This document shows positions 536-32,150 of a stretch of 64,000 bases of DNA, piece after piece; the first letter of the stretch is position 1; each line of letters starts with the position of its first letter. Under the pieces are notes generated by a model. It was not told the origin of the DNA, ran no database searches, and was given only the letters and a program-made list of their open reading frames with translations. The DNA comes from Cyanidioschyzon merolae (lineage: Eukaryota), in NCBI GenBank assembly GCA_000091205.1, contig AP006496.2. One strand, given 5' to 3'. The position numbers and the translations under genes were made by a program.

Positions 536-587
536 CTGAATGGAGTGCGCCCCTGCGGATGCAAACGTGTACCTGTGCATGCATCGA

Positions 588-790
588 CGTTCATACAGTG
601 CACGCATCGCTATGCATACGTTCATACAGTGCACACATCGCTATGCATACGTGTCCGTGCACGCATCGCTATGCATACGTTCATACAGTGCACGCATCGC
701 TATGCATACGTTCATACAGTGCACGCATCGCTATGCATACGTGTCCGTGCACGCATCGCTATGCATACGTGTCCGTGCACGCATCGCTGT
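588..790. repeat. Minisatellite of alternating 31-bp and 28-bp units (gcacgcatcgctatgcatacg + ttcatacagt or tgtccgt), about 7 copies.
   Basis: Direct reading: the unit starts at 600, 631, 659, 690, 721, 749 and 777. Confidence 0.85.
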
Positions 791-4000: not shown

Positions 4001-7000
4001 TGCACACCCTGCGCCGCGTTGTGAGTCGCCAGTGGACTCGTGAGGCCGTTGCCTCCTGGTCAGAAGCGGCCCTCAAAGCGTGGCGAGATCGCCACGAGAA
4101 CGCAAATGCCTACTACTACCGGCATACCGATCCTGGTGAATTTGAGGGCGAGGAGACGCAGTCGCTCCACACGTGGACGCCTGCGGAACGGCGCCTATTT
4201 TTCGCTGAACTAGATCGCTGGCGTGCCAACCAATGGCGCCTAGGCACCTGCTGGGGCATTTTCAGCAAAGCGATTCCGTCACGATGCGGCTACCAGTGTT
4301 CCAATTTTTACCGGGCATGTATCCGCAGCGGCGAGATCCACGATCCAACGTACGGCTTCAATGCCCGAGGAGAGCTGAAGCGACTTTATCCGGAGCGCGA
4401 GGACCCGAACACGCGCGCTCCGCCTGACGCGCTGAATTGTCTCAGCGAGGTCTGGCAGTGGCCCGAGATCCAGTCCATGGAGCGGCAAGTCGATACGTGG
4501 ATTCGGGAACTGCATCCGAGCCTGGCTCTGAATGCAAATTGGTATCGACAGCAGCGCCCTGCAGGCGAACCGCAACGACGCAACGTGCGCGCTGCCTCTG
4601 GTGGACAGCGACAGGCGCGCAGTATTCGCCGCTCACTGCCAGCGACACACATCGACCTGCTTGGGTCGTACCCCGACGCATACATCACCACAACTGATGC
4701 AGCATACGAAGAAGCGGATGTGCGGCATCGACGCGAACGCAGACTCGCGTATCGTTCCGCCTCCGTCGCCTCGACAGGATGCTGTGTGGTCGCACCTGCA
4801 CCTGATCAGCGACGCCTTGAGTCGCGCACTGGCAGCCGCCAAACTTTGCGTTCTCGATCGCAAGCGGAAACGCCCGAACTGGCCTTTGTTGAGGTCGACG
4901 GAGGCGCGCTGATGGAAGTGATGCAAGCGCCCGCCGCAGACCCAGTGGCTGTACCGCAGCGGCGCCGTCTTCGACGTCTCGCCTCACCAGAATCCGACCT
5001 TGTTGACCAGGATGCATTTGGAGTCGATGACGCGCGCTGTCCTACTGTGGCATCTCCAGAGAGCCATAATGCAACAGCGATGCGGTATCAGCAGCGCCCG
5101 AATCGTATCGTTCTTGAGGCAGAGCATGCTGGCACCTCGCTGGGTGCACCATCAGGCCAGAGAAGCGACCGCTGCAATGCAAACCTCGACAAGGTTGCTA
5201 TTGGTGTCGTTCGCTCCATGCGCTCTATGACTGCCCGCAGGCAGCGACTAGAAAGCATTCTGGAACGGATTCGGGCAGGCAAGGCGTCCACGCGGGGACC
5301 AGCACCTGCGCCGGTGCATTCGCTGTTGCAGGCGTCCATGTCAGATGGCAAAGAAGCGTCCTTGTCGGGCAGCACTTCACCAGTGCATGAAGCTCCCGAC
5401 TGGCGCGTACAGCGCCTGCGTCACCTGGTTGGGGCAGCTGATCAGCCTCAGCGCACCGCGCTACTCCCAGCGTTGGAGGCATCTTCTGGAGCGGTCGGCG
5501 GAACATCGCAGAGGTTACCGGCACCGTTGGCGACAGCAGAGGGGCATTCTGGCCGCAAACGCCGCCAACCACAACGACTACTCATTGCTGGACAGACGGC
5601 GGCGACGACGACGACGACAGGAGCAGCAGCAGCAGCAGCAGCAGCGATGAACGCATCTGGTGCAATAGTGCCGCCGATGGAAACGGAGACCCGCTCTGCA
5701 CAGAGGTCAGCAGTCGCACAGCATTGTTACACGGAACAGATTGTACAAGAGACAGGAAACGACTTGCCGGGTGATGAAGGCGACGCTGCGCATCAGCGTA
5801 CAAGTCGATTCTGGGCGCACCAGCATCAGCAGCGTTCACCCGCGAGCATCGTACCTGCGTTCAGAGCCAGTAAGCAACAGACACGCCTCCCGGAATGGCG
5901 TCCGCAGACGCTTTCGGACCATTTGTTGCGACTTTGTCGATTGCTGGACTTGTCGTCGTCGTCGTCGTCGTCGTTATCGAATGCGTGGTGCGATAATGCG
6001 CTCGGGCTTCCACCAGCCGGGGTGCCGCTCGAACGGGCGACACTCGCGCACCCCGAGTGCTTCGACGCTGGCAGATCACACCCTCTACCGCTGATTGTCG
6101 CGGAACGTTCGACTGTGACGGCAGCAGGGACGCGCTCGCAGGCTACAGATTCGTGGAATGCTGCTGACGCTTTTATTGACGGCTTGGACGGTGTGGATGC
6201 GTCGTCGTCGTTGTTGCAGCAGGACAGCGCGCCGCCAGCAACCGCTACAGACGCAGCTGGACGCAGCCGGTATGCTGGCGATAACCCAGACTCTAGCTTC
6301 TACGCAGCCTGGAGTGGCTACTTGAATCAAATGTTGCAGAGAATCCTTCAACGGCGCTGCGGGGATGCTCCTGCAGATCCGCATGCGGAAACGAATGTGA
6401 GCGGTGCGTGGAACGCGCACGACGAGCATGCTTCTGGAACCGGTGCGTCGCAAGCGTGGAGCTGTTCGCTTTCGACACGCGACACGAGCTGCCAGTTCAC
6501 GCTCTGGCCGATGTTGCAAACGCTGTTGGAACGGCTGGCGAACGACGTGGTGCTCTTGTACACGGACGCGGACCCAGTGCTAGGACAGTGGCTGCGACAA
6601 TCGGGTTCTCGCTTCGCCGATGGTCAAGAGGGAGCGGAGCCCGCTCTCCCGCACCTCATACAGCTGGTGATGCGATTGACGGCGCTGCATGCCGACACGC
6701 AAGTCGTTGTGGCGGCGCATTCGCTGGCGACGTGTGTGCACGAGGCGCTCGACGGCACCAGTGCCTCGTCGTCGGGAATATGTTGCGCGCGAGACGCCCT
6801 GTGGATAGCCGTCGCTGTTGGTCTTGAGCGAGCATCGGCAGCGCATGTTCGTCTCCCGACGTTACCGTTGACGATTCCGCAAACGATACCGGTAACCGCT
6901 GCAAACGCGGCGGAAAGCGTGAATGAGCAAGCAAATGCCCAGCAGCAGCTACGTTCGGCACTACGTCTTTTCTGCTGGCACCTGCTTTGTAGCGAAGCGC

Positions 7001-8588
7001 TTCATTGTGCGCCCGTGTTGCTGACAAGTCCGATGTGCTGGCGCCTTGGAGCATCGGCGCTGGCCGAAAGCCTCCAAGGATGGCGGACACTGCGTCAGGA
7101 ATGCACGTCGTCGTCGTCGTCGTCGTCGTCGTCGGGGTCAGCAACGTTGACGATGCCTGCGTTGGCGGCGCTTCTCGCACGCTGGCATGAGCGGGTGCTT
7201 GCGTGCTGCACCCGACACTGGCGCCAGGTTGTGAATGCGGCATGTACGCATCATACTGGCGGCTTCTCGTTGGACACCTGTGCTCCGCTGCTGGAGCAGG
7301 CGCTTCACCTCGGCGCTGAGGCCGCGACCTGGATCGCTTTTCCGCTAGCAACCACCACGAACGCTGAAACAACACTAGGACATGCTGCTCAGCGTCGGCT
7401 TGGTCGTCATGATTGGCGTCTGCAGGCACAGGCGCTGGACGAATGGGCCACGGAGCTGATGCGACCGTTCAGTCCCGAAAGTGACGCGCTTGGCTGCACG
7501 GTGCTGCGTCCTGCTGCTGCTGCTGCTGCTGCTGCTGCCGCCGCCGCCGATTATGATGGTAATCATAACGACGGTCATGATGATCACGGTACACCCGCAT
7601 CGCTCCAAAATATCTGCAATGTTGACTCGTCAACCGCTGTAGTTGCCCTGGCGGGCGTACCCAATGCATGGCATTCGAATACGCTGGGTGCGCCGTTTTC
7701 GCAGCCGTCCACATCAGTCGACGGATTCTATGTCCAGGGCGCTGCGGCGCTGAGCGCACCTGTCACTCTTGGCGCGTTATTTGGCGTGCTACGCTCTGCT
7801 CTGGAGATGTTGGCCGTCTGGAGAACAAGCTGCTGGCAGCGTTTCATCACCAATGCATCGAGTCCGGTGGCAGCATGCAGCGTGGTGGTGGACGACGCGA
7901 ACGCCACCCATGCTGGAGCGCGCTTGCTAGCCAGCACACTCGAACGACGCTGGCTGCAGTTGCTACGCGCGTCGTTGGCACGTCTCTGGCAGGTCAGCGG
8001 GCCCGCAGACGACACAGCAGGCGATGGTGTCTGCCACTGGATCGACCGTAGCTACGGCCCATATGTGTTCTACCTGTACGGGACAGCGCTGCTGGCGCAG
8101 ATGCTCCCTGATCCAGAACGGCAGGCACTCTACAGACAGGTGCGGCATCGCTGCCCTAACTGGATACTGCCGACGCTCCTGCGTCTACACGGGGCGTTTA
8201 TGATATGGTGCTGCACTCGTGTGCGATTCCTCGAGACGTCGCAGCATGCGGCATCATCTGCAAACGAAACGGCGATGGCGTCTCCAGGCAGTGCAACGCC
8301 GCCGCTGCTGCTGCTGCTGCTGCATGGACTTGTCCATGTGCATGCGACGGAATGGGTGACGCTTTCGCAGCAATTGCTGCGCTGGCTGGAGACGGCTGGT
8401 GCGGCACCAGCCGGATTGCTTCCGTCAGCGGGTATGGCGTATGCATCGGAACGCGCGCCCCTGCCGGCAGTCTTGGCGCAACGCGTCCTTGCGCAGCGGC
8501 TCGAGACCAACCGCGTGATGCTTGGACAGATTCCAGCGCTCGATCATGTGACCGCATGGGTCGAGCGTTGCGTGGCAAGCAGCAGCAA

Positions 8589-8620
<32 letters not shown>

Positions 8621-11559
8621 ACAACACCATCCCGAGTGTCGGCAAATGTGCGATTGGCGCGTCCACTTGGACGTGCTGGGAGACGCTGTGGCAAGCGCTG
8701 CCTTGGTACTGGACATGGCTGACGCGAGTCTTGGAAAACGCTGCGCTTGGGAGCAGCGGATCGACTGCGCCCAGCACGCGGTACGCGATCACGCCTGCAC
8801 TAAGCATGGTCACCAGCGGTGTCGTTGTACGCGTCGCCCGTTTCATTCAAGTGGTACTGGCGAGTGCGCTGCTCGAGCTGACGCCCTGTGCAGAGAGCGC
8901 AGGCGCCCAGTCGGATGATGCGCGGGATCCACCGCGTGACCCAGACGCATGGATATGGGCACCAGAAATGACGGCAACGACAACGGTCGACTGGTGGGCA
9001 GCACACACCCAGCGCGCACTGCTGTTACACGCGATTGGCCCGTCGAGTGAGCGCCTCGCCGCGTTTCTCGAGCTGGTGCTTCCGCAAAACCAGTCTGGTG
9101 CTGCTGGTAACTCGACTGGTCTGCTCTGGTTTGTTCCAGCGTCACTGCAGGAGGCACACGCGCACCTCGTTGCCGATATGGTGCGTCTCTTGCATCAGGT
9201 CGAAGGCGCTGCGACGGTCCATCGTTTCTTGACGCGGCTGACGCCTCTCCTTGGAGGACGCTCTGAATACCTGGAAAGCTGGACGGGCATTCGGGCCTGT
9301 CAACGGCGTTGGTCGATCGGATTTCTCACTCGACTGGTGTTTTTGGCGAAACTGCAAGAGCCGGTACGCATACCTGGCAACGTGCACGCTCCCAGAGGCG
9401 TATCAGCGTCCGAAATCCACTGCTGCGGCAGCGACGAATGCAGCGAGACTGCTGACGCTTACGGAGCGCTGGGCGAGTCGTCGGCAAACGCTCTGTGTAG
9501 CGACCAGGAGGCAGCACTGCGACTGGCGGCCGCGTTGCAGCATCTTCTGACACAGACGCTGCTGCATGGACTGGTAGCCTCGCCGCTGCTTTGGGCCTCG
9601 GAACAGGCCGGCGCTCGTGAACGACCGGCCAGTCGCCTATGGTCGAGCATGGAGCCGCTTGTGCGCGCCCTTTGCCAGAGCGGCGATGTTGAAGACGAGG
9701 ATGCAGGAGCAGCAGCAGCAGCAGCAATGCCGTCGTGGCCGCTCTTTCTGGCGCGGTATGCAGCACGCTTCTGCAACGGGCTGGTGCGGCATCCAGCGAC
9801 AAGCGTAGCAACATCGACAACAATAGCGGCTGCAGCACCGCTGACGCATGTGCGGCACCTCTGGCTACCGTTGCTGGCGCGTTTGCGGCAGCTGGTGCCT
9901 ACAGCTTCGGCTGCGACGGTTAACAGCGAAACAAGCTGGCGCCGGCACCAGGTGTCGACGCTGCTGGCCAAGCTGGTAGACGAGCTGGAGGCGCTGCTGA
10001 CAAGTGCGCTCGCCTGGAATCATATGTGGTTGCAGGGGCGGCGTGCGGCAGTCACGGGTGATGAAACACCTGCTCTGTCGCGAGCTGCTCTGCAACTGTT
10101 CCAGTACCTCGTGGAGTTTGCTGGTATTCTTTTGGTGTTGTGTGCGCGCCTTTTGCGGGTACCAGGGCGCGCTCCGTTCTGGTCGCGAGTGATTCGTCTT
10201 GGTCGTCGAGCGCTGGAGGAGTACGCAAACATCGTTGCTGGTCAACGGCGGCAACTGCTACAGACAGAAACGTCCTATGCGCCTGGTAGGTCGCGTTCCC
10301 TGGAACACTTGCGTTGTGTCTGGATCGCTACGGTATTGCGAGGTCTCGCCCAGATGGATCTAGTGCCTAACGATAGCTACTATGCGAGTTTTCGGCGACA
10401 CTTGATTGCGGCAAGCCTCGCCCAGGATGCCCTGGATGCGCTTGTACTGGGTCTATGGCCTGGTTTGTCACCGACTTTGTTGCAGCAGCCGGTCGGCGAG
10501 AGCACGGCTGCCAGGTCCGAACGACCAGCGGTTGGTGCTTGTGTTCGCGAGTCGGATGCCGCTGCTGAGGCGACTGCGTTGCTCGCCCTGCTCGATTGGT
10601 ACTGTCGACCGGAGACGCTGTTCCCTGCAGGCACTGCTGCTCTGCAGCGACTGGAACGTTTTCAACAGGAGTGGCTAAGCGATCTGTGCAGCCGGTGCCT
10701 AGCCCAGGCGCAGTCCGAGCGTTGTGTGAACCTGTTGCAGCGCTGGCTCCAAGGTCGGCTTTTGACGTGTACCCGTCAGTCGTGCTTGTCGCATCTCAGC
10801 GGTGCTGTGTATTACGCAACGATGGCGAGAACGCTTGCCGTTGCCTGGTGGTCCGGTTGCATGCGCCACGTTGCTGTGCGTCTGAATCACGCAGGTTCAC
10901 CATCGATGACGACGACGACGACGACGACGCCAGAACAGCAACAACAACAACAACAACACAGGGCGGCGTTGCGCCCTGCAGACCGAGTGGCGACGGAAGT
11001 GATCAGCGACCAGTGCTCGGGCCGACGATTTGCACAGCGTTTTCGCAACAGCGTCGACTTGGCTGCTGCTCTAATGGAGTGGCTCGCGGCAAGCACCCGA
11101 GTGGATGCCCCCGCTCAAGCGACATGCGAGGAGACGTTGGCATTGCTGCTGGAAGCGCTAGCTGCACATGTCAGTGCCGGTTCATGTCCACATTGCGGTG
11201 ACGATCCAAGTCCGGCATCGATATCGTCTGACGAGCGCGTGCAGTTGCTACGTCGTCGACTGGCGGAACAGCGAGCACGCTCTGCCTGCGCAGCGGTACA
11301 CGCGGTATGGACGGATCATCTGGAGCGACTCGCTCGCAAGGAAGCGATGGACGCCAAGTTGTTTACCCATCCTAGTTGTTGTCGAAACTGGCTGGTGATA
11401 CAAGTCAATGACGTAGTGGAGAGAGCGGCTTGCTGGCGTCGGCGACCCGGTGATATCTGGCGGACCGCTGGACCTAGCGTCTTCGATGGAATGAAAGACG
11501 CTACGACGACGACGAGGACGCCACCGCCATGGTTGTGCTGGTCTGTACCTGAACGCTAA
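1045..11559 (+). CDS. Giant low-complexity protein of 3,504 aa, rich in Ala/Ser/Leu/Arg, with a SANT/Myb-like domain. No other recognisable catalytic domain.
   Basis: Uninterrupted 10.5-kb ORF starting at a true ATG. SANT signature WTPAERRLFFAELDRW...W...IFSKAIPSRCGYQCSNFY near 4.17-4.35 kb. In-frame homopolymer runs: polyT (aa), polyQ, polyA and polyS. Confidence 0.6.
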
Positions 11560-11910: not shown

Positions 11911-12490
11911 TCTTCTCGCATGCAATAGATCGTGTTGCTAGATAGTTGCTCCTTATCAAAGAATGCGGGAAACGGATCCAAGTACTGAATAAAGTGTACT
12001 AGTCAAGGTGGACTTGCCAGTAACAGATCCTCTCTAACCCCAACGTGCTGACCTCTTTCTTCTCGCATGCAATAGATCGTGTTGCTAGATAGTTGCTCCT
12101 TATCAAAGAATGCTGGAAACGGATCCAAGTACTGAATAAAGTGTACTAGTCAAGGTGGACTTGCCAGTAACAGATCCTCTCTAACCCCAACGTGCTGACC
12201 TCTTTCTTCTCGCATGCAATAGATCGTGTTGCTAGATAGTTGCTCCTTATCAAAGAATGCTGGAAACGGATCCAAGTACTGAATAAAGTGTACTAGTCAA
12301 GGTGGACTTGCCAGTAACAGATCCTCTCTAACCCCAACGTGCTGACCTCTTTCTTCTCGCATGCAATAGATCGTGTTGCTAGATAGTTGCTCCTTATCAA
12401 AGAATGCTGGAAACGGATCCAAGTACTGAATAAAGTGTACTAGTCAAGGTGGACTTGCCAGTAACAGATCCTCTCTAACCCCAACGTCGA
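11911..12490. repeat. Intergenic satellite with a 146-147-bp unit, 4 tandem copies.
   Basis: The unit tctcgcatgcaatagatcgtgttgctagatagttgctccttatcaaagaatgctggaaacggatccaagtactgaataaagtgtactagtcaaggtggacttgccagtaacagatcctctctaaccccaacgtgctgacctctttctt repeats at 11914, 12061, 12207 and 12353. Confidence 0.9.
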
Positions 12491-16436: not shown

Positions 16437-16851
16437 CAGCTGCACGCGAACAACTGCAGGCGCAGGTCGAGCCGGTTGTGCGTTTCCGTGAGGACTCCCA
16501 TTGGGCGTTGCTGCGTGCTGCTCAGGAGGTTGCCCAAAACGACGCTCCTCATCAACACCGTCGTCACTGCTGCCGCTCGCCGCTGTACTAGCGTAACACG
16601 AACAGCGCCGACGCTTCGGAGCAACCACGCCCGCGGGCGCTCCGCTGACGCTCCAACGGTGCCCAGGTTGTAGGCGTTGCAAGGTACACACGACGAAAAC
16701 CATACCGGTGTTTACGCCAGAGTCGAGCGTCACGATGTGCAACTTTCAGCAACACTTATGCGCAGTAGATAGTACGTACGGGCGCCGCAGCCAAACGCCT
16801 TTCGAAAGTCGAACGACGTCGGGCGTGTACAGTAGCGGCGACCGGCGGCCT

Positions 16852-19189
16852 AGACGTAACGCTTCCAGCTGGTGTGCAGACGCCTCCCAGCGTTTCTCGG
16901 CGGGCCACGTACTATTTCTTCTAATTTCGTCTCATATACTTCTACTTTTCGAGATTGTCCAACAAAATTCCCTCTTGTCTACTCTGGAGGTCTGTTCTCC
17001 AGCACTGCCCATCTCCGGATATTGATAGCGGCGTTAAAGTCACGATTCACAAAATCCATACGTCTCCTGCAATCTCTGGTTGTACTTTCTGATGCAAGTA
17101 GTCCACGAACTTTCGCTCTCCTTTCAATTTGCTCTTCCGTCAGCGGTTCGTGCTTTGCTATTTCCGAACGGCTCGTTGGCACTTTTCCATCTCCACTGTC
17201 TGAAGTGTACAACCCATTTCATGGTGTGTATAGGACGTTCGGAACTCATGTACAGGTATCGTGAAGAAACGCCTTGCGCACTCTTTGTATGTTCTTGCCG
17301 TTGGAACTGGCGCAGTCCCTTTTTTCGACGCCGAGCACCCTGCTCTGTACGCTACTACGAGCCTCTGACTTTCATCCTCCTTCAGGGCGCTCAACTGATT
17401 GAAAAAATTCGCGAACGCCCGCTGCTTCCCACAATACAAGTTCATTCACAAACGAGCCCACCGGGGCTTGGTATACTCCTCCCACAGCGCCTCCCAATGA
17501 GCAGCGCGAACTTTCATGAATTTCCGAAAAGCTTCAAAGTCCGCTCCTCGGCTAGTCACCTCGCTCAAAGCTTCCATGTGATCCTTCACTCCTGAATTCC
17601 ATTTCTCGATTTTCTTCCTTGCATTCATTATACCGGATTCTCGATAGTATCTTGGTCTCGAGAACCTCAAAAGACGCATGTCTCTCTAACGAAAGTTACC
17701 ACCAGTACTATCTTCCGCACGCTTCGGTGCTGCGATGGTGATGATATTCGTATTCCCGGGGTCCGCGCCAACGACAAAGTCGTTATCTTGTACTTTCTGT
17801 GCCGCAGGATCCGCCTTCTTGTTTTCTTCATGCTTCGTCGCGCCAACGACAAAGTCGTTATCTTCCACTTTCTGGGTCGCAGGATCCTCCTCTTTCTTTT
17901 CTTCATGCTCCGCCGCGTCAACGACAATGTGGTTATCCTCCACCTCCTGCGTCGCAGGATCCTCCTCTTTCTTTTCTTCATGCTCCGCCGCGTCAACGAC
18001 AAAGTCGTTATCCTCCGTCTCCTGCGTAGCAGGGTGCGCCTCCTTCTCATCTTCATGCCTCGCCGCATCAACGACATGGTCGTTATCTTCCACCTCCTGC
18101 ATGAGAGGATCCTCCTCTTTGTTTTCTTCATCCTTCGTCATGGGCGCAGTCGAGGGCGGAATTGGACGATCTTTCTTCAACCGCCGATAGTGTATACACA
18201 TGGCTACTCCATCGGTTTCGATCAACCCAGTAAATACCTTTTGTTTGGTCTCTTTGAGACGTTTGAAATTGAAGATATTCTTCCAGTACGTCTCCCGGTT
18301 ATCACCGGAGAACTCCTTGTTGCTAACATTGAACTCCGGACAGATCTCCTTCATGATGCCATGAAGGATCCTGGAGTCGATACTCACAAAATGTGACTTG
18401 ATGTTGCACAACGGAACCACGTTGAACCGCTTACCCATTAGGAAAGCCTTCTGTCTCTCCCACTCTTCATTTTTCCTCACTCAGCTTCATCTCCGCCTTG
18501 CGTTCGAGTTCTCGATTCAGGAATACGAAATAGAGCAGGATGAGTTGATAGCATCTTTTTTCATCTTTTTTGAACTCTGATATTTTTTCTGTTGGATTCG
18601 CCAGCCCCATGACTGCACGGTGCTCTTGTATAACCGCACGGATTACAGAAGCCTCATTCGTGCTCTCGTTTGGCGCCTTCTTGTCGACAAATTCGACCTC
18701 ATCTTCATACTTTCGATCGTTCGTGATGCCATTGATAATCGCCCATATTCCTTTGCGAGACAGGCCCGGGTAGAGTGGAAACACGGTGCGTATTATGAAA
18801 CGTTCGAGGTTCATTGTCAAATGGTTCTTCAGGTTCGTGATGTGCTTCATCGCCCCGTAGCCGTAAATACCCCGGTCACCCTTGTATCGAGTACCGTTGA
18901 AGCTGTAAAAGGGATGTTTTTCGTGGGGGCCATGCACTAGCACATTTTCCCTCCGCGTTTTCTCTCCACCAAGCATCAGGTGTCGAATAAAGGTGATGTC
19001 GAAAAACTCGTCTGGAATCTCGACCGTTTCGATGTGCGTCACGTCTTTGTACATCTCCCTCGCCAAATGCATCAGCCCTGACGACGCCTTGACAATACTC
19101 TTGGAGTACGAGTCGACGCGTTTTTCGATAGCGTCTCGCAACTTTTCCCTGTACGGATCCTTGATATGGCCAAGAAGAAAGGCTCTCAT
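16852..19189 (-). pseudogene. Fanzor1-like (TnpB-like) RuvC nuclease gene, disrupted. Ruv[18 protein letters not shown], RuvC-II region IPVHEFRTSYTHHE, zinc finger, RuvC-III VNRDFNAAINI.
   Basis: Main ATG at 19189. One frameshift near KAEMKLSEEK/EWERQ. Nonsense TAG where B has CAG (GGNFR*RDMRLL). Frameshifts at PRWARL/MNLYCG and after MEKCQR. Nonsense TAG where B has TTG (RPPE*TRGNF). The coding tail ...RGNFVGQSRKVEVYETKLEEIVRGPPRNAGRRLHTSWKRYV* is conserved with B at the amino-acid level. Confidence 0.75.
17745..18125 (-). repeat. In-frame 75-bp coding tandem repeat, about 5 copies, encoding roughly [25 protein letters not shown], inside the Fanzor-like ORF just upstream of RuvC-I.
   Basis: Period 75 nt (for example 17877 and 17952). 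Copy B has about 2 units (27.16-27.26 kb). Confidence 0.85.
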
Positions 19190-19399
19190 CACCTTCTCGT
19201 CGTACAGTCGTCTTTCTTGCCGCCTTCGACGTAGGACCTCTCCCCTTCGGTTCTTTTTCTTCTCCTTTTCTTCTGGGCTCGGCACTGTTTTTCGTTTTTT
19301 CTGGCAGCCAGCGATACTGGGCCTCCAGGATCGTCGACTTGCTTTTTCATAGCTTTCCTTTTTCAGTTTTTTTAAATGAACCCGCTGTGAATGCTTCGG

Positions 19400-19406
19400 T
19401 TATATA
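19400..19406 (-). promoter_or_regulatory. Conserved TATATAA box about 50 bp upstream of the uORF ATG (19350) of element copy A.
   Basis: cgcagTATATAAccgaagc in A aligns to cgcggTATATAAcagaagc in B (25857-25863) within the conserved 5' end. Confidence 0.45.
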
Positions 19407-20799
19407 CTGCGAAAAAACACTTGGCCAGACTTGTTTGAGGGTTGAAACACCAATGAACTGAAAACTATATTTTTGTTCGACTCCGACGCAAATACAACTT
19501 TTACAGCTGAACAACACGCTCCTGGTCAGCATCGCGGTTCCTTTCAACGGCGGCATGTGCATCGCGTCAGTTGACTGCCTGATCTCCGAGATGCGTTCAT
19601 TAAGCGCAATGCGTCCATCGCACGAGACGCCACTCCAGTCGATGAAGGACACGTGTCCGACACCCCGCATTGGCACATGCGTGTTCGCATCGCATTGCAG
19701 CCAAACTAAAGTATCGTAGATAGGAAACTCACGTAGAACGATCTCTTGCTATAGACGCTGTCGCTGGTGCCGAAGCTACTGCCCATCGCAGTACCGCCTG
19801 GACATACATGGAAATGTTGGGACCTAACGCGATACCTCGTGATGCTTCTATCAAAAGCGTAGCGTTCTCTGCGGCTTACCGTTGTGTGGATGACGTATGC
19901 ATCACTCTTCTCACTAGGAATTTCGTTAGTTTTATTCATCGTAACCAAACTAGGTACGGTGGGATTCCTGAACACGGACATACGTTTAATGCCGATGCTT
20001 GTCACGCATGCTACACTGACGCTGGAATGAGGAACTGACCTGAATTGTGCTTCTATCCTGCGTCATAGGCTGGTACTGATGACCGTTCAAGTCATTTCCA
20101 TGCTGCTGTCGTTGTCTAACTTATGGTGCCTGCTTCGTCCTCCGGATCCGGTGATCTTGGCAGAGGCATAGCACACTCGACCGGCCCCCTGCTATCGGTT
20201 TCAGCTTCTCCTTGTTCACCTCTGGCCTGGGAGGTTCCCCCAGAAAGTTGGACCGCGTCAGCTCCGCCGGTCGCGCGTTCATCACCATTCATCATCTGAT
20301 ATTGATGGCGTTTTGTCTGAAACGCTCGTGATAGAGCTGAGGTCAAGAAGCGATCAATCTTGACCGACGCTATCAAACGAGCGGTACCAGAAGCTGAGGG
20401 CTGCAGCCGGCACCAGGTGCTCTGATGCCTACATGCTGGCCGTGAATAGTGCGTGACGAAGTCGCACAGCATGCCACGGTTTCCTAGTACGTAAACCAAG
20501 CACGTATTCGAAACGTTCGGGTTCAGTGTGATGACGAGTCGCCGCTACGGCATTCTGGGAAAATCATCCGAGTGCGCTATGGTTGTTCGAACATCGAGCA
20601 TCATCACGTGTATGGGTGCGTTTCACTGCACGAGTTGCAACGATCATCGAATCCACCATCATCCAAAAGTGACGAAAATTTACAAGCGTACCGGGCTCGC
20701 ACCTCCAGGTCAGGACGTGCCCACCAGCACGCAAACAAATTTCGTGCCCTGCTGTGCTTTCACCAAAAACGAAAGGAAACATGCGTTTCCTCGACCAGG

Positions 20800-21994: not shown

Positions 21995-22428
21995 CCTAGG
22001 CCGAAGCGAACCCAGAGGCCTGCGGCGGCTGTAGCTGTAGCTGCAGCGGTGGTGGTGGTGGTGGTGGTGTCCAGACCCAACGCCCTGCTGCACCGTTCCG
22101 AGGGCGTGTCGGCGCCATAGCGGCGCTTTACTGCCACTAGCAAGCAAGGCCCGTGTACACACCGCGCCACTACCGAGGTCAGCGCGTTTCCCGACCGATC
22201 CCGCAACAGGTACTGATACAAAGCAACTGATTCCTACCATTTCCGTCTCTCAGGGTCCTGCTTGTGTGGAGTACACGTTGCCCAGCAAAGCACCAGCGTA
22301 GAGCAGTCGCCACAACGATCTCCGCGCCTGTGCGCTGCGGCTGGCGCACTGCCGCATCTCATCGAGGCGAGATCGCGGCGCCTGGAAGTGGACATCAGCG
22401 GCGGCAGCGGCGGCAGCGGCAGCAGGTG

Positions 22429-22630
22429 TCACGAGCACGGGGTGCGGACATATACCAACGAACATACGGTGTGTCGATGGGTGCTGCTTTGGGTGTCACG
22501 CGCACGGGGTTCCGAAGTATATCAGTGAACATACGATGTGTCGATGGGCGCTGCTTTGGGTGTCACGCGCACGGGGTGCGGACGTATATCAGTGAACATA
22601 CGGTGTGTCGATGGGCGCTGCATTGGATGA
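22429..22630. repeat. Tandem repeat with a 67-bp unit, 3 copies.
   Basis: gtcacg(c)gcacggggtgcggacgtatatcagtgaacatacggtgtgtcgatgggcgctgctttgggt at 22429, 22496 and 22563. Confidence 0.85.
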
Positions 22631-24406: not shown

Positions 24407-25065
24407 TCAAGCACCAGCGCTGTAACAATGCTGGCTGGGATCCGAGCCCAAGATGACGTAGGTGTAAATTTCGTCGTTCAGCATTTGTGCGGTATACGAT
24501 GCGATAAACTTGTACCGACCAGAGGTCAGCGCTGAACGGAATACCCGTTCCATCTCTGGAACCACCAGCATTGCAGCTTCAAAGGCCTCCCGTCCAAAGA
24601 GGCCCTCGCCGCCGTATGCATACGGACTCGACCAGTTGAAATAGTGCGCTGGCAACTTTGTGGCATGCGCAGCGCCCATATAGTCGGTGCTGGTCCAGCC
24701 GCCCACGGCGAGCGCTGACTCGACAGCTGCCCGTCCGAGCGCACTGCAGTTGCCAGCGGCCACGTCTGCTATCGGACACTCCACCATGTTATCCACGACG
24801 TTCGCAGCACCAATGATCAGTCCCTTGTTCAGACACAGGTCATGATCAAGGTCTGCAAGCGCATTCATGATGGTAAAGTCGTATTGCGACACGTTCAGGG
24901 CCATAGCGTCGGTCTCGTTGATGTAGATGCCACCGAGCGCCCTGCTCGGCACCCGCAGGATACTCTCTTCGAGCGTCTCGAGGTTCAGCGGCGTAACCAC
25001 TGTCGCAGCACAACGAGACAAACATCCCGCAAGCCCCCACAGGCTAAGAAAAGCGAAAAGAAGCC
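24407..25065 (-). CDS. Secreted Cys-containing protein with a signal peptide and N-glycosylation sites; unknown family. Paralog of the gene at 30544..31191.
   Basis: Signal peptide MRAWLLFAFLSLWGLAGC. Shared C-terminal motif LGSDPSQHCY and overall about 40% identity with the paralog. ATG at 25065. Confidence 0.55.
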
Positions 25066-25856
25066 ACGCTCGCATATTAATCAGAACAGAGCCACGTTCC
25101 AGGAAAAACAGCAATGTCTCTATCGTGGGTGGTGCTGCATTGGGGATCAAGGCGCACCGCGTGTGCGTGCGTCTGTGCGCGGAGCGCCCTGCGGCGAACA
25201 GGCCCCGGTGCAGGCCCTGCGAGACGCCGCGGTGGCACCACCGGCGCACGCCTCGGGAGCCGGCACACTCGATCCGTGGCGATCGAACAGGCCCAGCGGC
25301 AGCGCCAAAATGGGCGTTCGGGACGTCGGCGGCGCCACCAGCATCAGCGATCGGCGCCAGATTAGGAAGCGATGCGTGCCGGCGCGCGCTGTTTCCGACG
25401 TTCCAGGCGTCGACGCGTCGATGTCGGTGGTGGTGGCTGCGGGCGCCTGCATCTCCACTTAGGTGAGGGCGGTACTGAGATGGGCAGGAGCGTCGGCACC
25501 AGCGACATAGCATAGAGCAGGAGTGCATTCTACGTGAATTTCCAATCTAGGACACCTGATTTCAGCTGCAGTGCGATGCGAACACGCATGTGCCAATGCG
25601 GCTTCGGACACGTGTGCTTCATCGATCGGAGCAGCGTCTCGTGCAGTGCACGCATCGCGCTCGGTGAGCGCACCCCGGAGATCAGGCAGTCCATTGACGC
25701 GACGCGTATGTCGCCAATGAGGGGAAACGTGATCTTGATCAGTAACGTGTAGCCGCAATGTAAAATTGTAATTTCATTGAGTTCGTATCCAGGTATAGTT
25801 TTTATTTCAATTGTGCTTCACCCTTAAAACAAGCGTAGTCAAGTGTTTTCTCGCGG

Positions 25857-25863
25857 TATATAA
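25857..25863 (+). promoter_or_regulatory. Conserved TATATAA box 56 bp upstream of the uORF ATG (25919) of element copy B.
   Basis: Aligned with the copy A TATA box within the conserved 5' end. Confidence 0.45.
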
Positions 25864-26079
25864 CAGAAGCGTTCAAAGAACGTTCTTTTTCAAAAAAAAA
25901 TCTAAAAAAAGGAAAGTTATGAAAAAGCAAGTCGACGATCCTGGAGGCCCAGTGTCGCTGGCTGCCAGAAAAAACGAAAAACAGTGCCGTGCCCAGAAGA
26001 AAAGGAGAAGAAAAAGAACCGAAGGGGAGAGGTCCTACGTCGAAGGCGGCAAGAAAGACGACTGTACGACGAGAAGGTG

Positions 26080-28177
26080 ATGAGAGCCTTTCTTCTTGGC
26101 CATATCAGGGATCCGTACAGGGAAAAGTTGCGAGACGCTATCGAAAAACGCGTCGACTCGTACCCCAAGAGTATTGTCAAGGCGTCGTCAGGGCTCATGC
26201 ATTTGGCGAGGGAGATGTATCGCGACGTGACGCACATCGAAACGGTCGAGCTTCCGGACGAGTTTTTCGACATCACCTTTATTCGACACCTGATGCTTGG
26301 CACAGGGGAAGCGCGGAGGGAAAATGTGCTAGTGCATGGCCCCCACGAAAAACATCCCTTTTACAGCTTCCAGGGTAATCGATACAGCGATGACGGAAAT
26401 ATTTACACATGCGGGGTAATGAAGTACATCACGAACCCGAAGAACCATTTTACAGTGAACCTCGAACGTTTCATGATACGCGCCGTGTTTCCACTCTACC
26501 CGGGCCTGTCTCGCAAAGAAATACGGGCGATTATCAATGGCATCACGAAGGATCGTAAGCATAAAGATGAGGTCGAATTCGTCGACAAGAAGCCGTCACG
26601 CAGGAGCACGAATGAGGATTCTGTAATCCGTGCGGTTGTACAAGAGCACCGTGCGGTACTGGGGCTGGCGAGTCCAACGGAAAAGATATCAGATTTAAAA
26701 AAAGATAAGGAAAGATACTATCGCCTCGTCCCGCGATATTTTGTGTTTCTGGACCGAGAGCTCGAACGCAAGGCAGAGGTGAAGCTGAATGGGAAAAATG
26801 ACGAGTGGGAGAGACGGAGGGCTTTCCTAATGGGAAGCGCTTCAACCTCGTTCCAATGTGCAACATCAAGTCACATTTTGTGAGTATCGACTCCAGGATC
26901 CTTCATGGCATCATCAGGGAGATCTGTCCGGAGTTCGATATAAGGGAGACAGAGTTCACCGGTGAAAACCGGGAGACATACTGGAAGAATATCTTCAATT
27001 TCAAACGTCTCAAAGTGACCAAACAAAAGGTATTTACTGGGTTGATCGAAACCGATGGAGTAGCCATGTGTATACACTATCAGCGTTTGAAGAAAGATCG
27101 TCCTGGTCCGCCCTCGGCGAACCACGAAGATGAGACGGAGGCGGTTCCTGCCACGTAGAAAGTGCAGGAAAACGACTTTGTCGTTGGTGCGGCGAAGCAT
27201 AAAGATGAGGAGGAGGAGGATCCTGCGACGCATGAGGTGGAGGATAACGACTTTGTGGTAGGCGTGAACCCCGGGAACACGAATATCATAACCATCGCTG
27301 TATCCAAGCGTGCAGAAGATGGTACTGACGGCAACTTGCGTCAGAAGACATGCGACTTTTGAGGTGCTCGAGAGCAAAATGCTATCGAGAATCCGGTATC
27401 ATGAATGCAAGGAAGAAAATTGAGACATGGAATGCAGTAATGAAGGATCACCCGGAAGCTTTGAGCGAGGTGACGAGCCGCGGCGGGGACTTTAACGCTT
27501 TTCTGAAAATCATGAAACTTCGCGTTGCTCGTTGGGATGCGCTGTGGGAGGAGTATACAAAGCCTCGGTGGGCTCGTCAACGTATGAAACTATACTGTGG
27601 TAAGCGGCGCGCGTTCGCGAATTTTTTCAATCAGTTGAGCGCCCTCAAAGAGGATGAAAGTCAGAGGCTCGTAGTAGCATACGGAGCAGGGCGCTGGAAG
27701 ATCCAAAAAAGGACTACGCCAGCTCCATCGACAAGAACGTATAAGGAGTGTGCACGGCGTTTTGCTACAATACCTGTTGATGAGTTCCGAACATCGTATA
27801 CACACCATGAACGGTGATGTACGCTCCAGAGAGTCGAGATGAAAAAGCGCCAGAGGAGCCCTGAGGATATAAAAAAGTACGGAGCGCAAACGGAAGAGCA
27901 AATGGAAAGGAAAGCGAAAGTTCGTGGACTGATCGCATTGGCGAGTACAATCAATGGCAAGAAACGTATCGAATTCGTGAACCGAGACTTTAACGCCGCC
28001 ATCAATAGAAGGAGATGTGCGGCGATGGAGACGAGACCTGCGGAGTTGACAAGAGAGAATTTTATGGGGCAACCTCTCAAGGTGGAATTATACGATACGA
28101 AGCTGAAGTCAGTAGTAGGTGGCCGGTCGAGAAAGACGGGGAGGCGTCTGCATTTCAGTTGGAGACGTCTCGTCTAG
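26080..28177 (+). pseudogene. Fanzor1-like (TnpB-like) RuvC nuclease gene, disrupted. RuvC-I has mutated to GVNPG (D to N). RuvC-II IPVDEFRTS, RuvC-III VNRDFNAAINRRRC.
   Basis: Main ATG at 26080, overlapping the stop of a 53-codon basic uORF (25919..26080, TGATG). A 1-bp indel at AFLMG/KRFNLV. Nonsense TAG at VPAT*KVQ where A has CAG. A 1-bp deletion at RQKT/MRLL. TGA at HHER*C where A has ATGGGT. Elsewhere continuous where A is broken. Confidence 0.75.
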
Positions 28178-28724
28178 GACGAGTTCGCCGCCACTGCTGT
28201 ACACCGCTGGCGGCAGCGTTGTTCTTTTGGAAAGCGTTTGTTGTTCGTGGTGCTCTTGCCGTTTGTCTCATGCGCGTTTGAAGGTGCGAATTTAGCAAGT
28301 CGAGTTGGGCTCGTCACGGGTGTGTGTGCACCGCAGGCGCGGGCAACGTGGTACACGACGCTCGTACCTCCACGGATGCTTCCAAGTGAACCACTGGTGC
28401 CGGACTGGTGTTCCTCTCAGAGATAGTGGTTTAACCGTTTCCGTTTCCCCGCGGTTGCTGAGCGCAGAAGGGACAGCTTTGCTGTACGAATGGACGAATA
28501 TCGCTTCGAGGTGCACTGTCCAGCATACCGGGCATAGAGGCTGATAGATCGGGCGCTTTGGTATCGGTGCGTTGCGAAACCGCGCAAGGTTCAAGAAGCA
28601 TGCAGTCCGCTTTACTTTCTGGATTTTTGGCACCAGTGCCCATATACGGTTGCTCGAACCGAATACAGTGCTTTCGCTAGGCGCTAGCGGCAACGGAGCT
28701 CAATGATCATGCGCTGCTCCAGTG

Positions 28725-31191: not shown

Positions 31192-31974
31192 TGAACGGCG
31201 TATCGTGGCATGCAGGCATCGGGCTTGCGAACGGGCGCATGGTGTCGATCTGCACGGTGAGCGGGATGTACGAGGCGCTGCCCATCACTGCGCACAGCGG
31301 TACCCCATGGGAATGCTCGCTCCGCGCTGTGACGCAGCGAGTGCCGGCGACAGACACCGTGCCATGCCGTGCTGTGCTTTGCTGCCTGTGTATTGGAAAC
31401 GTGTATGGTTGGAATCCTCGGTGCTGGAGCACCGACAAACTCGACACCTTGGAGTATCGCCATGTGAGCTATGCGGATACGGGACACGCGTGCGTGCAGA
31501 CGTGTCCGTGCATCGACGCTTGTGACAGCGCCACGAAGGCTAGCGTGCGATCCTTGGTATCTTGGCGCCTTCTGCAGGCACCAGGCGCCGCCGACGGAAA
31601 GCGCATCGGGGCATGTTCTGCACGCAATGGTGCTCGCTCTCGAGAGCGTGCTGCGGGAGATACGGACGGCATTCGAGTGCAAACCAGCGGTGGACGTGAC
31701 GTGGGATCCGCATCGTGTGTTTATTAGCTTTTGTCTGCTGCAGTCGGATGTCGTTTCTATGTCGTCGACGCGAATGCTCCCTATCACATTTCTGGGGTAT
31801 TTTTGGGACACCCACTTTTACTAGCAGCCCACTGATGCGCACCGTCTCTCGGCAGGATGAGGCAGCATCGATTCCGAGGCGTGCGCGTCGCGACTCGGCT
31901 GCACGCACTGGCGGGCATGCAGCTCGATGCATGCATGCATGCGGTCAAGTTGAAGCGGCTGCTGAACGCATTTT

Positions 31975-32150
31975 ACGGGATGATCATATCGACTGCCTGT
32001 GCGTCTTCCCCGTAAACATACTCTATTTTGGTGAAAACCCTGACATACTGCAGAACGCATTTTGCATGATGATCATATCGACTGCCTGTGCGTTTCCCCA
32101 CAAACATACTCTATTTTTGTGAAAACCCTGACGTATGCTGGATACCTTCG
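31975..32150. repeat. Direct repeat of 88 bp, 2 copies.
   Basis: gatgatcatatcgactgcctgtgcgt...aaacatactctattttggtgaaaaccctgac at 31990 and 32078. Confidence 0.8.

What the first reader, a model, noticed from the sequence alone, without database searches (positions are those of the whole stretch)
17745..18125. Variable-number in-frame 75-bp repeat that re-duplicates the RuvC-I beta-strand
Inside the nuclease ORF, a 25-aa unit ([25 protein letters not shown]) is repeated about 5 times in A and about 2 times in B. Each unit ends in DNDFVVDA, a pseudo-copy of the genuine RuvC-I start [11 protein letters not shown] that follows the last unit. This acidic expanding linker lies between the recognition lobe and the nuclease lobe.
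Basis: seen in the sequence. Interest (0 to 1): 0.5.

Follow-up and report, generated by a model that had tools for sequence, protein, structure and literature searches.

The report
Variable coding repeat in Fanzor linker
Two decayed copies of a known red-alga transposon nuclease gene (Fanzor1) carry a 75-base in-frame repeat, five units in one and two in the other, that lengthens a floppy acidic linker just before the nuclease's first catalytic strand; it is real but fairly ordinary.

Summary
Copy A carries 5 head-to-tail 75-bp units at 17764-18138 (-). Copy B carries 2 units at 27117-27266 (+). Neither array has indels, and both are in frame.

The window is Cyanidioschyzon merolae 10D chromosome 14. 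The two elements are diverged, inverted copies of the known Fanzor1 family CMe-1A (Bao & Jurka 2013). Both are pseudogenes.

Each 25-aa unit has a net charge of about -4.8. Each ends in (F/L)VV(G/D)A, a copy of the residues that form RuvC-I strand beta1. Only the last unit is followed by the catalytic D-P-G.

AlphaFold models put every upstream unit in a structureless, low-confidence segment. That segment lies between the WED hairpin and RuvC-I. Only the last unit's F(I/V)VGA is modelled as a strand.

Across 87 arrays, 85 of them from related metagenomic copies, the unit count runs from 1 to 6. One orthologous locus, 99% identical over its flanks, has 3 units in one sample and 5 in another. 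Distant Fanzor1 relatives have a single, unrepeated linker with a median length of 39 aa.

The best reading is a coding minisatellite, made by slippage or unequal exchange, that a disordered linker tolerates. A selected role for the acidic tract is not excluded. Interest is low to moderate. The Fanzor family is already known. No description of the repeat was found, but it is mechanistically unremarkable.

The parts
17764..18138 (-). Copy A array: five in-frame 75-bp units (25 aa each), with no stop codon and no indel.
   Evidence: TRF. Codon-register coordinates and unit translations.
17731..17763 (-). Copy A RuvC-I motif [11 protein letters not shown]. The catalytic Asp codon (17761-17763) directly follows the last unit.
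   Evidence: This Asp (D240 of the ORF) is the only invariant column in the 34-sequence alignment A3. It aligns to GCDPG of GtFz1.
18139..18186 (-). Copy A non-repeated part of the linker ([16 protein letters not shown]).
   Evidence: No secondary structure is modelled from residue 98 of the ORF onward (this part is residues 99-114), with low confidence.
18187..18234 (-). Copy A WED beta-hairpin ([16 protein letters not shown]), the last folded element before the linker.
   Evidence: Strands E84-89 and E92-97 in the window-ORF model, and E350-358 and E362-370 in the P0001 model. Aligned to the tDGV hairpin of GtFz1.
16830..19798 (-). Copy A of the Fanzor1 CMe-1A element, a pseudogene. Lesions: frameshift near 18470-18480, stops at 17686-17688 and 17446-17448, frame change near 17160, stop near 16979-16981.
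   Evidence: Extent from blastn of A against B. Homology to L002 runs on to about 16797. Three-frame translation. ORF list.
17233..17259 (-). Copy A RuvC-II motif IPVHEFRTS (catalytic Glu).
   Evidence: The column is conserved in alignment A1.
17018..17053 (-). Copy A RuvC-III motif FVNRDFNAAINI (catalytic Asp).
   Evidence: The column is conserved in alignment A1.
27117..27266 (+). Copy B array: two 75-bp units. Unit 1 carries an in-frame TAG at 27156-27158.
   Evidence: TRF..
27267..27299 (+). Copy B RuvC-I motif with Asn in place of the catalytic Asp ([11 protein letters not shown]).
25468..28196 (+). Copy B of the same element, inverted relative to A and also a pseudogene. Lesions: frameshifts near 26800 and 27360, TAG inside the array, stop near 27815.
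   Evidence: Blastn: 86% identity over 1.8 kb and 81% over 1.1 kb to copy A. Three-frame translation.

Best explanation
The feature is an in-frame coding minisatellite inside a Fanzor1 gene of the known C. merolae transposon family CMe-1A.

**Origin (inferred).** A 75-bp segment was duplicated head to tail. It encodes the acidic end of the WED-to-RuvC linker plus the five residues (F-V-V-G-A) that precede the catalytic Asp of RuvC-I. Replication slippage or unequal exchange then expanded and contracted the array.

**Why it is tolerated.** The period is a multiple of three. The duplicated piece lies in a disordered linker. As a result, only the unit nearest the catalytic D-P-G has to supply the real beta1 strand. 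All upstream units simply lengthen a floppy, strongly acidic tether between the WED hairpin and the RuvC core.

**History (inferred).** Multi-unit arrays were carried by master copies that were still under protein-level selection, and they spread with those copies. Individual copies also gained or lost units in place.

**In this window.** Both copies are dead genes, so the repeat has no present function here.

**Status of the steps.**
- Shown: the repeat, its reading register, the family assignment, variation in unit number, and the state of relatives at this site. Nearer relatives carry a single unit and more distant ones an unrepeated linker.
- Predicted: the disorder (AlphaFold only).
- Inferred: the slippage mechanism, the neutrality of the extra units, and the activity of array-bearing proteins.
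For: **Repeat and register.** TRF gives period 75, 5.0 and 1.9 copies, and 0 indels.

**Family.**
- The window is C. merolae 10D, shown by exact matches to CMN280C, NHE8 and CMN297C.
- Bao & Jurka 2013 describe Fanzor1 CMe-1A in this genome: about 150 copies of about 3 kb, each about 80% identical to the consensus.
- The homologue profile hits GtFz1 at E=1.9e-4.
- The top 7 Foldseek hits are all Fanzor1 structures.
- D, E and D motifs are present. The RuvC-I Asp is invariant in alignment A3.

**Disorder.**
- In the P0001 model (4 units, mean pLDDT 74), residues 374-471 have pLDDT below 50 and no secondary structure. The strand at 479-484 is the FIVGA tail of the last unit plus the catalytic Asp (FIVGAD).
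- In the window's own 264-aa ORF, residues 98-234 are unstructured with block-mean pLDDT 32-46. Only FVVGA (235-239) forms a strand.

**Variable number.**
- Among 87 arrays flanked on both sides within one ORF, the counts are 1:29, 2:22, 3:12, 4:16, 5:6 and 6:2.
- L001 and L003 are the same locus, 99.1-99.5% identical over 11.6 kb, with 3 versus 5 units.
- Of 16 protein pairs whose 60-aa flanks are at least 95% identical, 6 differ in unit count.

**Inheritance.** For 212 of 225 units in multi-unit arrays, the nearest relative lies in another array.

**Ancestral state.** A more divergent subfamily at 52-56% identity carries a single unit. Homologues at 27-40% identity have an unrepeated linker that the unit model does not match. 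In 103 Fanzor1-like representatives the TDG-to-DPG distance has a median of 39 aa and a maximum of about 98. CMe arrays reach about 126 aa with 4 units (measured in P0001), hence about 176 with 6.

**Only the last unit looks constrained.** Last and single units keep [11 protein letters not shown] (Gly at position 24 in 55/64 and 28/31). Upstream units drift to EVEDND(F/L)VV(D/G)A.

**Selection on array-bearing genes.** dN/dS outside the array is 0.34-0.39 among A, B and L002, all of which carry at least 2 units.
Against: - Disorder rests on AlphaFold confidence only. The window-ORF model is a fragment with mean pLDDT 49.5.
- Pooled dN/dS among the five units of A is about 0.50, not 1 (the pairs are not independent and each unit has only 25 codons). 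The strongly acidic composition is kept across 229 units. Some constraint on the extra units therefore cannot be excluded.
- Most unit counts come from short-read metagenome assemblies. These can miscount near-identical units, such as the extra units in L003.
- I found no full-length intact copy with a multi-unit array. P0001 (752 aa, 4 units) has a GTG in place of a start codon and lacks about 35 C-terminal residues.
- The exact ORF of copy A is absent from the protein collection. The 5-unit count at this locus therefore has no independent assembly behind it.
Confidence: 0.75

Rival explanations
1. The acidic repeat is a selected functional module. It could be a nucleic-acid mimic that masks the RNA/DNA-binding surface of the RuvC/WED region. 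It could be a histone- or chromatin-binding acidic tract. It could be a spacer whose length tunes the geometry between WED and RuvC. In each case copy number would adjust activity.
For: - The acidic character is maintained: mean 7.6 Asp/Glu against 2.8 Lys/Arg per unit over 229 units.
- dN/dS among the units of A is about 0.5, below 1.
- Multi-unit arrays were inherited through lineages with dN/dS of 0.34-0.39.
- Acid-rich linkers occur at the same site in GtFz1 and P0049, where 31% of linker residues are acidic.
Against: - One unit is the commonest state (29 of 87).
- Most Fanzor1-like representatives have short linkers (median 39 aa). The longer linkers listed there are 5-23% Asp/Glu apart from P0049 at 31%.
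- Upstream units have relaxed consensus positions compared with the last unit.
- The count changes between near-identical copies without any visible pattern.
- No experiment bears on the question.
Confidence: 0.15
2. The repeat number, or the repeat itself, is an assembly expansion or collapse artefact.
For: Tandem repeats are classic sites of misassembly. I could not inspect any long-read or raw-read data. The exact ORF of copy A is not found in any other assembly in the collection.
Against: - The units of A differ from one another at 9-27% of positions, so each 75-bp unit is individually recognisable. The whole 375-bp array is shorter than a Sanger read.
- The same array architecture occurs in independent JGI assemblies, with TRF giving 4.0, 3.0 and 5.0 copies in L002, L001 and L003.
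- From my own knowledge, not checked here, the 10D genome was finished to completion.
Confidence: 0.03
3. The repeat acts at the DNA or RNA level, and its coding frame is incidental. It might be reiterated binding sites, or hairpins used by the transposition machinery, by a host factor or by the transcript.
For: - Most units contain a 6-bp inverted repeat, AACGAC-TTT-GTCGTT, which encodes NDFVV.
- The array folded as single-stranded DNA is more stable than its shuffles (z = -4.06, 0 of 100 shuffles as good).
Against: - The hairpin is only 6 bp. It is broken in unit A3 and in the L002 and L003 consensus units.
- It falls out of the codons for N-D-x-V-V, roughly a 1-in-16 coincidence of codon choice.
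- Fanzor omega-RNAs lie at the 3' end of the element, not here (established knowledge, Saito et al. 2023).
- Rfam finds nothing in the window.
- Unit length is strictly 75 nt, or 72 nt in one unit of P0008. This is what a coding constraint would produce.
Confidence: 0.03

Closest known systems
Fanzor1 family CMe-1A of Cyanidioschyzon merolae (Bao & Jurka 2013, Mobile DNA 4:12; PMC3627910)
   Same: Same organism, same element size of about 3 kb, and multi-copy. Copies are about 80% identical, no terminal inverted repeats are reported, and the protein is Fanzor1. The two window copies fit this description.
   Different: The paper does not mention a tandem repeat; the term 'tandem repeat' has 0 occurrences in its text. 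The variable 75-bp array appears not to have been described. I could not compare against the Repbase consensus itself.
Guillardia theta Fanzor1 (GtFz1, PDB 9cer) and SpuFz1/PpFz1 structures (Xu et al. 2024; Saito et al. 2023)
   Same: Same fold by Foldseek (E 1e-14 to 1e-10). GtFz1 has the same local order: WED hairpin, then an acid-rich linker of about 35 aa (..ACQEANDEEDSKQVTREELKTSK..), then LLGCDPG.
   Different: The solved proteins have a single, non-repeated linker. Sequence identity to the CMe protein is only 13-15%. GtFz1's non-canonical Asn is in the third catalytic position. It is not the RuvC-I position that is mutated in copy B.
PpFz1 Fanzor RuvC Insertion (FRI) domain (Xu et al. 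2024, PMC11423790)
   Same: A lineage-specific insertion of about 100 aa in a Fanzor1, which shows that the family tolerates large additions.
   Different: [quoted passage not shown] The CMe array lies before RuvC-I, is repetitive, and is predicted to be disordered.
Length-polymorphic in-frame tandem repeats in other transposon proteins, such as the length polymorphism region of mouse L1 ORF1 (from memory, not checked here)
   Same: In-frame tandem units inside a transposon-encoded protein. Their number differs among copies, and they sit in a structurally permissive segment.
   Different: A different protein, transposon class and unit. The comparison is an analogy only.
P0049, a metagenomic homologue (28% identical to the repeat-trimmed copy A protein) with an acidic insertion at the same site
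   Same: The TDG-to-DPG linker is extended to 73 aa and is 31% acidic. The same site is therefore permissive in another lineage.
   Different: It is low-complexity rather than a 25-aa tandem repeat, and it does not duplicate the beta1 residues.

Membership tests
Fanzor1 (eukaryotic TnpB-like RuvC nuclease) | RuvC-I catalytic Asp in a G-x-D-x-G-like motif at the end of the first strand. | tested here: met
   Copy A has [10 protein letters not shown] at 17731-17763. The Asp is invariant in alignment A3 and aligns to GCDPG of GtFz1. Copy B has Asn here (GVNPG), so B alone fails this point.
Fanzor1 (eukaryotic TnpB-like RuvC nuclease) | RuvC-II Glu and RuvC-III Asp motifs. | tested here: met
   A has HEFRTS (17233-17259) and NRDFNAAINI (17018-17053). 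B has DEFRTS and NRDFNAAIN. The columns are conserved in alignment A1. Loose motif counts in 110 long representatives are 103 and 107.
Fanzor1 (eukaryotic TnpB-like RuvC nuclease) | Overall fold and domain order (WED-REC-WED-RuvC-TNB-RuvC) like solved Fanzor1 structures. | tested here: met
   The AlphaFold model of homologue P0001 has mean pLDDT 74. P0001 showed 70% identity over the 60% of the repeat-trimmed copy A query that aligned. The Foldseek top 7 are SpuFz1, PpFz1 and GtFz1 with alignments of about 770-890 columns, followed by Cas12o and Cas12f. TM-scores are low (0.23-0.36). I attribute this to the disordered segment and to apo domain placement.
Fanzor1 (eukaryotic TnpB-like RuvC nuclease) | Significant sequence-profile match to curated TnpB/Fanzor models. 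| tested here: inconclusive
   Pfam gives nothing for the window proteins. Distant homologues get only sub-threshold PF07282 (Cas12f1-like TNB) hits, with E 0.0012-0.027. The precomputed label is DUF8286, marked weak. The family profile against PDB finds GtFz1 at E=1.9e-4.
Fanzor1 (eukaryotic TnpB-like RuvC nuclease) | Encoded in a multi-copy eukaryotic transposable element. | tested here: met
   The window is nuclear chromosome 14 of C. merolae. It holds two diverged copies. The literature reports about 150 copies.
Fanzor1 (eukaryotic TnpB-like RuvC nuclease) | Omega-RNA encoded at the 3' end of the element. | not tested
   Rfam finds no hit in the window. Homology between copies ends 20-55 bp after the stop codon, which is compatible with an omega-RNA there. 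I made no structure or covariation analysis.
Fanzor1 (eukaryotic TnpB-like RuvC nuclease) | Intact ORF and RNA-guided cleavage activity. | tested here: not met
   Both window copies carry several frameshifts and stops. They are relics of Fanzor1 genes, not working genes. Activity cannot be tested with these tools.
Coding minisatellite (in-frame variable-number tandem repeat) | Head-to-tail units with a period that is a multiple of three and an open frame across the array. | tested here: met
   Period 75 with 0 indels. The frame is open through all five units of A. B has one TAG.
Coding minisatellite (in-frame variable-number tandem repeat) | Unit number varies among paralogous copies and at orthologous loci. 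| tested here: met
   5 versus 2 units in the window, and 1 to 6 units in 87 arrays. L001 has 3 and L003 has 5 units at a locus that is 99% identical. 6 of 16 pairs with near-identical flanks differ in count. Caveat: these are short-read metagenome assemblies.
Coding minisatellite (in-frame variable-number tandem repeat) | Polymorphism among individuals or strains at this very locus (chr14, copy A). | not testable with these tools
   The exact ORF of copy A is not found in any other assembly in the collection.

The most novel reading that the evidence does not exclude
The acidic 25-aa units are not passive spacer. They form a tunable regulatory module of this Fanzor1 lineage. They might act as a DNA/RNA-mimicking tether that competes with nucleic acid for the WED/RuvC surface. 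Alternatively, decoy beta1 strands might compete with the genuine strand during folding. In either case unit number would set nuclease activity, and slippage would give the transposon a fast-evolving activity dial.
Probability: 0.08. Interest if true: 0.6.

Novelty: new member of a known kind. Interest (0 to 1): 0.25.

Why it matters
The main value is practical, and it is minor. Natural variation shows that the segment just upstream of RuvC-I in a Fanzor1 can grow from about 50 to about 175 residues. This happened in lineages that stayed under purifying selection (dN/dS of about 0.35 outside the array).

That marks the WED-to-RuvC linker as a candidate permissive site for internal insertions when engineering Fanzor or TnpB editors. 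This remains an inference until it is tested.

The array also gives a convenient length marker for tracing subfamilies of the CMe-1A transposon in Cyanidiales. It does not change how Fanzor nucleases are understood to work, and both copies in this window are dead genes.

Tried and rejected
- **Direct Pfam and PDB sequence searches.** Searches with the window ORFs and with frame-repaired proteins gave no meaningful hit. The family had to be reached through homologues, a profile and a structure model.
- **Second word-index homology search.** The search with alignment A1 was swamped by close fragments and added little diversity. The exhaustive representative search served instead: 4308 clusters at E<=1e-3.
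- **Independent assembly check.** An exact look-up of copy A's ORF, with three start variants, found nothing. The 5-unit count therefore has no independent confirmation.
- **Codon-position counts.** Raw counts suggested relaxed constraint in the units ([61,32,54] against [57,47,92] outside). The Nei-Gojobori estimate is only 0.50 against 0.34-0.39. I do not claim that the units are unconstrained.
- **Fuzzy-regex scan.** A scan for the N-terminal junction timed out and was replaced by the DNA search.
- **Asn in copy B.** I rejected the idea that it is the 'non-canonical N' described for GtFz1. That Asn is in the third catalytic position, not in RuvC-I.
- **Other ORFs across the array.** I rejected the ORFs on the opposite strand and in other frames as genes (17735-18190 +, 17788-18396 +, 17667-18131 -). 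They are stop-free by-products of a reiterated unit.
- **Omega-RNA covariation.** Not attempted. Only about 4 independent 3' ends were in hand.
Full report
**1. The observation.**

Tandem Repeats Finder reports one array at 17763-18137 (period 75, 5.0 copies, 83% matches, no indels, score 463). It reports a second at 27115-27256 (period 75, 1.9 copies, 79% matches).

In codon register the arrays are 17764-18138 on the minus strand (five units) and 27117-27266 on the plus strand (two units). Units are 69-91% identical at nucleotide level, and neighbouring units are the most alike (A3-A4 91%, A4-A5 87%).

The five units of A translate to:
- [25 protein letters not shown]
- [25 protein letters not shown]
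- [25 protein letters not shown]
- [25 protein letters not shown]
- [25 protein letters not shown]

They are followed directly by [11 protein letters not shown]. Its coordinates are 13-19 bp off, and its 25-aa unit is a rotated consensus.

**2. Where the window comes from and what the gene is.**

Four window ORFs are exact matches to annotated proteins of Cyanidioschyzon merolae strain 10D: CMN280C, the NHE8 antiporter, CMN297C and a hedgehog-like protein. All lie on an 852,727-bp record, so the window is nuclear chromosome 14 of this red alga.

The repeat lies in one of two diverged copies of an element of about 2.9 kb. Copy A spans 16830-19798 (-) and copy B spans 25468-28196 (+). They are 86% and 81% identical over two blocks and are inverted relative to each other.

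Three-frame translation shows that both copies are pseudogenes.
- A has a frame change near 18470-18480, stops at 17686-17688 and 17446-17448, a frame change near 17160, and a stop near 16980.
- B has frame changes near 26800 and 27360, a TAG inside its first repeat unit (27156-27158), and a stop near 27815.
- In B, Asn replaces the RuvC-I Asp (GVNPG).

Direct Pfam and PDB sequence searches with the window proteins found nothing useful.

A homology search found 50 relatives and a second search found 172. Almost all come from JGI metagenomes, and their contigs carry eukaryotic neighbour genes.

A profile of 17 of them hits Guillardia theta Fanzor1 (PDB 9cer) at E=1.9e-4. The aligned stretch is exactly the WED hairpin (tDGV..), then the linker, then GCDPG.

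An AlphaFold model of P0001, the closest long homologue, has mean pLDDT 74. P0001 is 752 aa and carries four units. Its top seven Foldseek hits are SpuFz1, PpFz1 and GtFz1 at E 1e-14 to 1e-10. Cas12o and Cas12f follow.

The three RuvC motifs are present and conserved: GADPG, (D/H)EFRTS and NRDFNAAINI.

Bao & Jurka (2013) already list one Fanzor1 family, CMe-1A, in C. merolae. They describe about 150 copies of about 3 kb, each about 80% identical to the consensus, without terminal inverted repeats, and some still intact. They do not mention a tandem repeat. The element is therefore known, but the repeat appears not to have been described. A full-text search for 'Fanzor' with 'tandem repeat' also gave nothing relevant.

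**3. Anatomy of the repeat within the protein.**

In the P0001 model the WED hairpin occupies strands 350-358 and 362-370. Residues 374-471 have pLDDT below 50 and no secondary structure. The next strand is 479-484, which reads F-I-V-G-A-D. Those six residues are the last five of the fourth unit plus the catalytic Asp.

I also modelled the window's own 264-aa ORF (17686-18480), which carries five units. Residues 98-234 are unstructured, with block-mean pLDDT 32-46. Only FVVGA (235-239) of the last unit forms a strand, followed by a second strand, IITIA (247-251). This is a low-confidence fragment model with mean pLDDT 49.5.

Each unit therefore does carry a copy of the beta1 residues. Only the copy next to D-P-G is predicted to be used.

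The unit is strongly acidic, with a mean of 7.6 Asp/Glu and 2.8 Lys/Arg and a net charge of -4.8 over 229 units.

Last units and single units keep [11 protein letters not shown], with Gly at position 24 in 55/64 and 28/31. First and internal units drift to EVEDND(F/L)VV(D/G)A. This fits constraint on the genuine strand only. Shared ancestry of the internal units could produce the same pattern.

**4. Variable number.**

A unit HMM was run over 129 family proteins plus the two repaired window proteins. It found 87 arrays flanked on both sides within one ORF. The counts are 1 unit (29), 2 (22), 3 (12), 4 (16), 5 (6) and 6 (2).

TRF on the DNA of three metagenomic loci gives 4.0, 3.0 and 5.0 copies.

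L001 and L003 share the same neighbour genes and are 99.1-99.5% identical over 11.6 kb. They carry 3 and 5 units, and the extra units are near-identical copies of the third. Of 16 protein pairs whose 60-aa flanks are at least 95% identical on both sides, six differ in unit number.

For 212 of 225 units in multi-unit arrays, the nearest relative lies in a different array. Array structure was therefore mostly inherited from multi-unit source copies rather than generated anew in each copy.

A more divergent subfamily at 52-56% identity carries a single unit. Homologues at 27-40% identity have an unrepeated linker that the unit model does not match.

In 103 Fanzor1-like representatives the distance from the WED 'TDG' to the RuvC-I 'DPG' has a median of 39 aa and a maximum of about 98. 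The CMe arrays reach about 126 aa with four units, as measured in P0001. That implies about 151 for five units and 176 for six. The site is generally length-variable, but I saw tandem amplification only in this lineage.

**5. Selection.**

Outside the array, over 567 codons, Nei-Gojobori dN/dS is 0.39 (A-B), 0.37 (A-L002) and 0.34 (B-L002). All three copies carry at least two units. Much of their divergence therefore accrued under protein-level constraint in array-bearing lineages. From this I infer that multi-unit proteins were functional.

Among the five units of A, pooled dN/dS is about 0.50. The pairs are not independent and each unit has only 25 codons. I do not claim that the extra units are free of constraint.

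**6. Mechanism and rivals.**

The most likely account has four parts.
- A 75-bp duplication was expanded and contracted by slippage or unequal exchange.
- It stays in frame because 75 is a multiple of three.
- It is tolerated because it lies in a disordered linker.
- It is anchored by the one unit that must supply beta1.

The rivals are as follows.
- A selected acidic module (nucleic-acid mimic, chromatin binder or length tuner) is not excluded, but it has no direct support.
- An assembly artefact is unlikely. The units are individually distinguishable, and the same architecture recurs in independent assemblies. I could not check reads, however, and copy A's ORF is absent from other assemblies.
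- A DNA- or RNA-level role rests only on a 6-bp hairpin (AACGAC-TTT-GTCGTT, encoding NDFVV) and a DNA folding z-score of -4.06. The hairpin is short, is not conserved in all units, and is largely a by-product of codon choice. At most it may favour slippage.

**7. Comparison with what is known.**

The element is a member of Fanzor1, specifically the CMe-1A family. The window copies fail the 'intact gene' criterion. I did not test for an omega-RNA.

The nearest structural relatives have a single acid-rich linker at the same place (GtFz1). PpFz1's roughly 100-aa FRI insertion shows that the family tolerates large additions, but FRI is a folded domain inside RuvC. GtFz1's non-canonical Asn is in the third catalytic position and does not explain the Asn in copy B.

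In-frame length-polymorphic repeats in transposon proteins are known elsewhere. An example is mouse L1 ORF1, cited from memory.

**8. Verdict.**

The feature is real and was correctly interpreted. It is a new example of a coding minisatellite, located in a known Fanzor1 family, in two dead copies. Interest is low to moderate. The main use is as a hint that the WED-to-RuvC linker is a permissive insertion site.

Noticed in passing
window 19294-19311 (-) and 25958-25975 (+); L002 5975-5992: Copies A, B and L002 share the same N-terminal frame break. An ATG opens MKKQVDDPGGPVSLAARKN.., while the main Fanzor ORF (..RKTVPSPEEKEKKK..) lies in the -1 frame. The junction is AGA AAA AAC, which gives the heptamer A_AAA_AAC, a classic -1 slippery motif. 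A -1 slip yields ..LAARKN|RKTVPSPEE... That matches the continuous ORFs of more divergent members (P0037, P0009, P0029). dN/dS among the three copies is about 0.35. The frame break may therefore be compatible with expression through programmed frameshifting, transcriptional slippage or a downstream start, rather than being a dead-master mutation.
   Followed up: partly
window 27267-27269 and 27156-27158: Copy B has Asn instead of the RuvC-I catalytic Asp (GVNPG). It also has a TAG stop inside its first repeat unit. This Asn is not the non-canonical Asn reported for GtFz1, which is in RuvC-III.
   Followed up: yes
window 16830-19798 (-) and 25468-28196 (+): The two Fanzor1 relics are inverted, with their 5' ends facing each other. 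They bracket about 5.7 kb that includes gene CMN280C (24407-25528, -). The start of CMN280C overlaps the first 60 bp of copy B's homology block.
   Followed up: no
window 11911-12487: A 147-bp tandem repeat with 3.9 copies at 99% identity lies just downstream of the 3504-aa ORF (1045-11559). It is much younger-looking than the Fanzor array.
   Followed up: no
window 587-788; 22425-22626; 31959-32132; 56978-57104: Other non-coding-looking tandem arrays are present. One has periods 31/59/90 at 88-94% matches. The others are 67 bp x 3.0, 89 bp x 2.0 and 63 bp x 2.0.
   Followed up: no
window 17764-18138, within each unit: Most units contain the inverted repeat AACGAC-TTT-GTCGTT, the codons for N-D-F-V-V. 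The array folded as single-stranded DNA has z = -4.06 against shuffles. This could be a slippage-promoting hairpin, or it could be a coincidence of codon choice.
   Followed up: partly
window 17735-18190 (+), 17788-18396 (+), 17667-18131 (-): Long stop-free ORFs run across the array in other frames and on the other strand. One encodes a basic repeat, [18 protein letters not shown]... These are by-products of a reiterated stop-free unit and are not evidence of genes.
   Followed up: yes
protein P0049 (metagenomic homologue), linker between TDG and DPG: A lineage 28% identical to the repeat-trimmed copy A protein has a 73-aa linker at the same site. It is 31% acidic and low-complexity but is not a tandem repeat. 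P0243 (98 aa) and P0295 (83 aa) also have long linkers there.
   Followed up: partly
family level (representative library): The profile of this Fanzor1 clade matches 4308 clusters (50% identity level) at E<=1e-3 and 539 at E<=1e-30. Yet Pfam gave only sub-threshold PF07282 hits on three distant homologues, and the precomputed label is a weak DUF8286. Curated domain libraries cover the clade poorly.
   Followed up: partly
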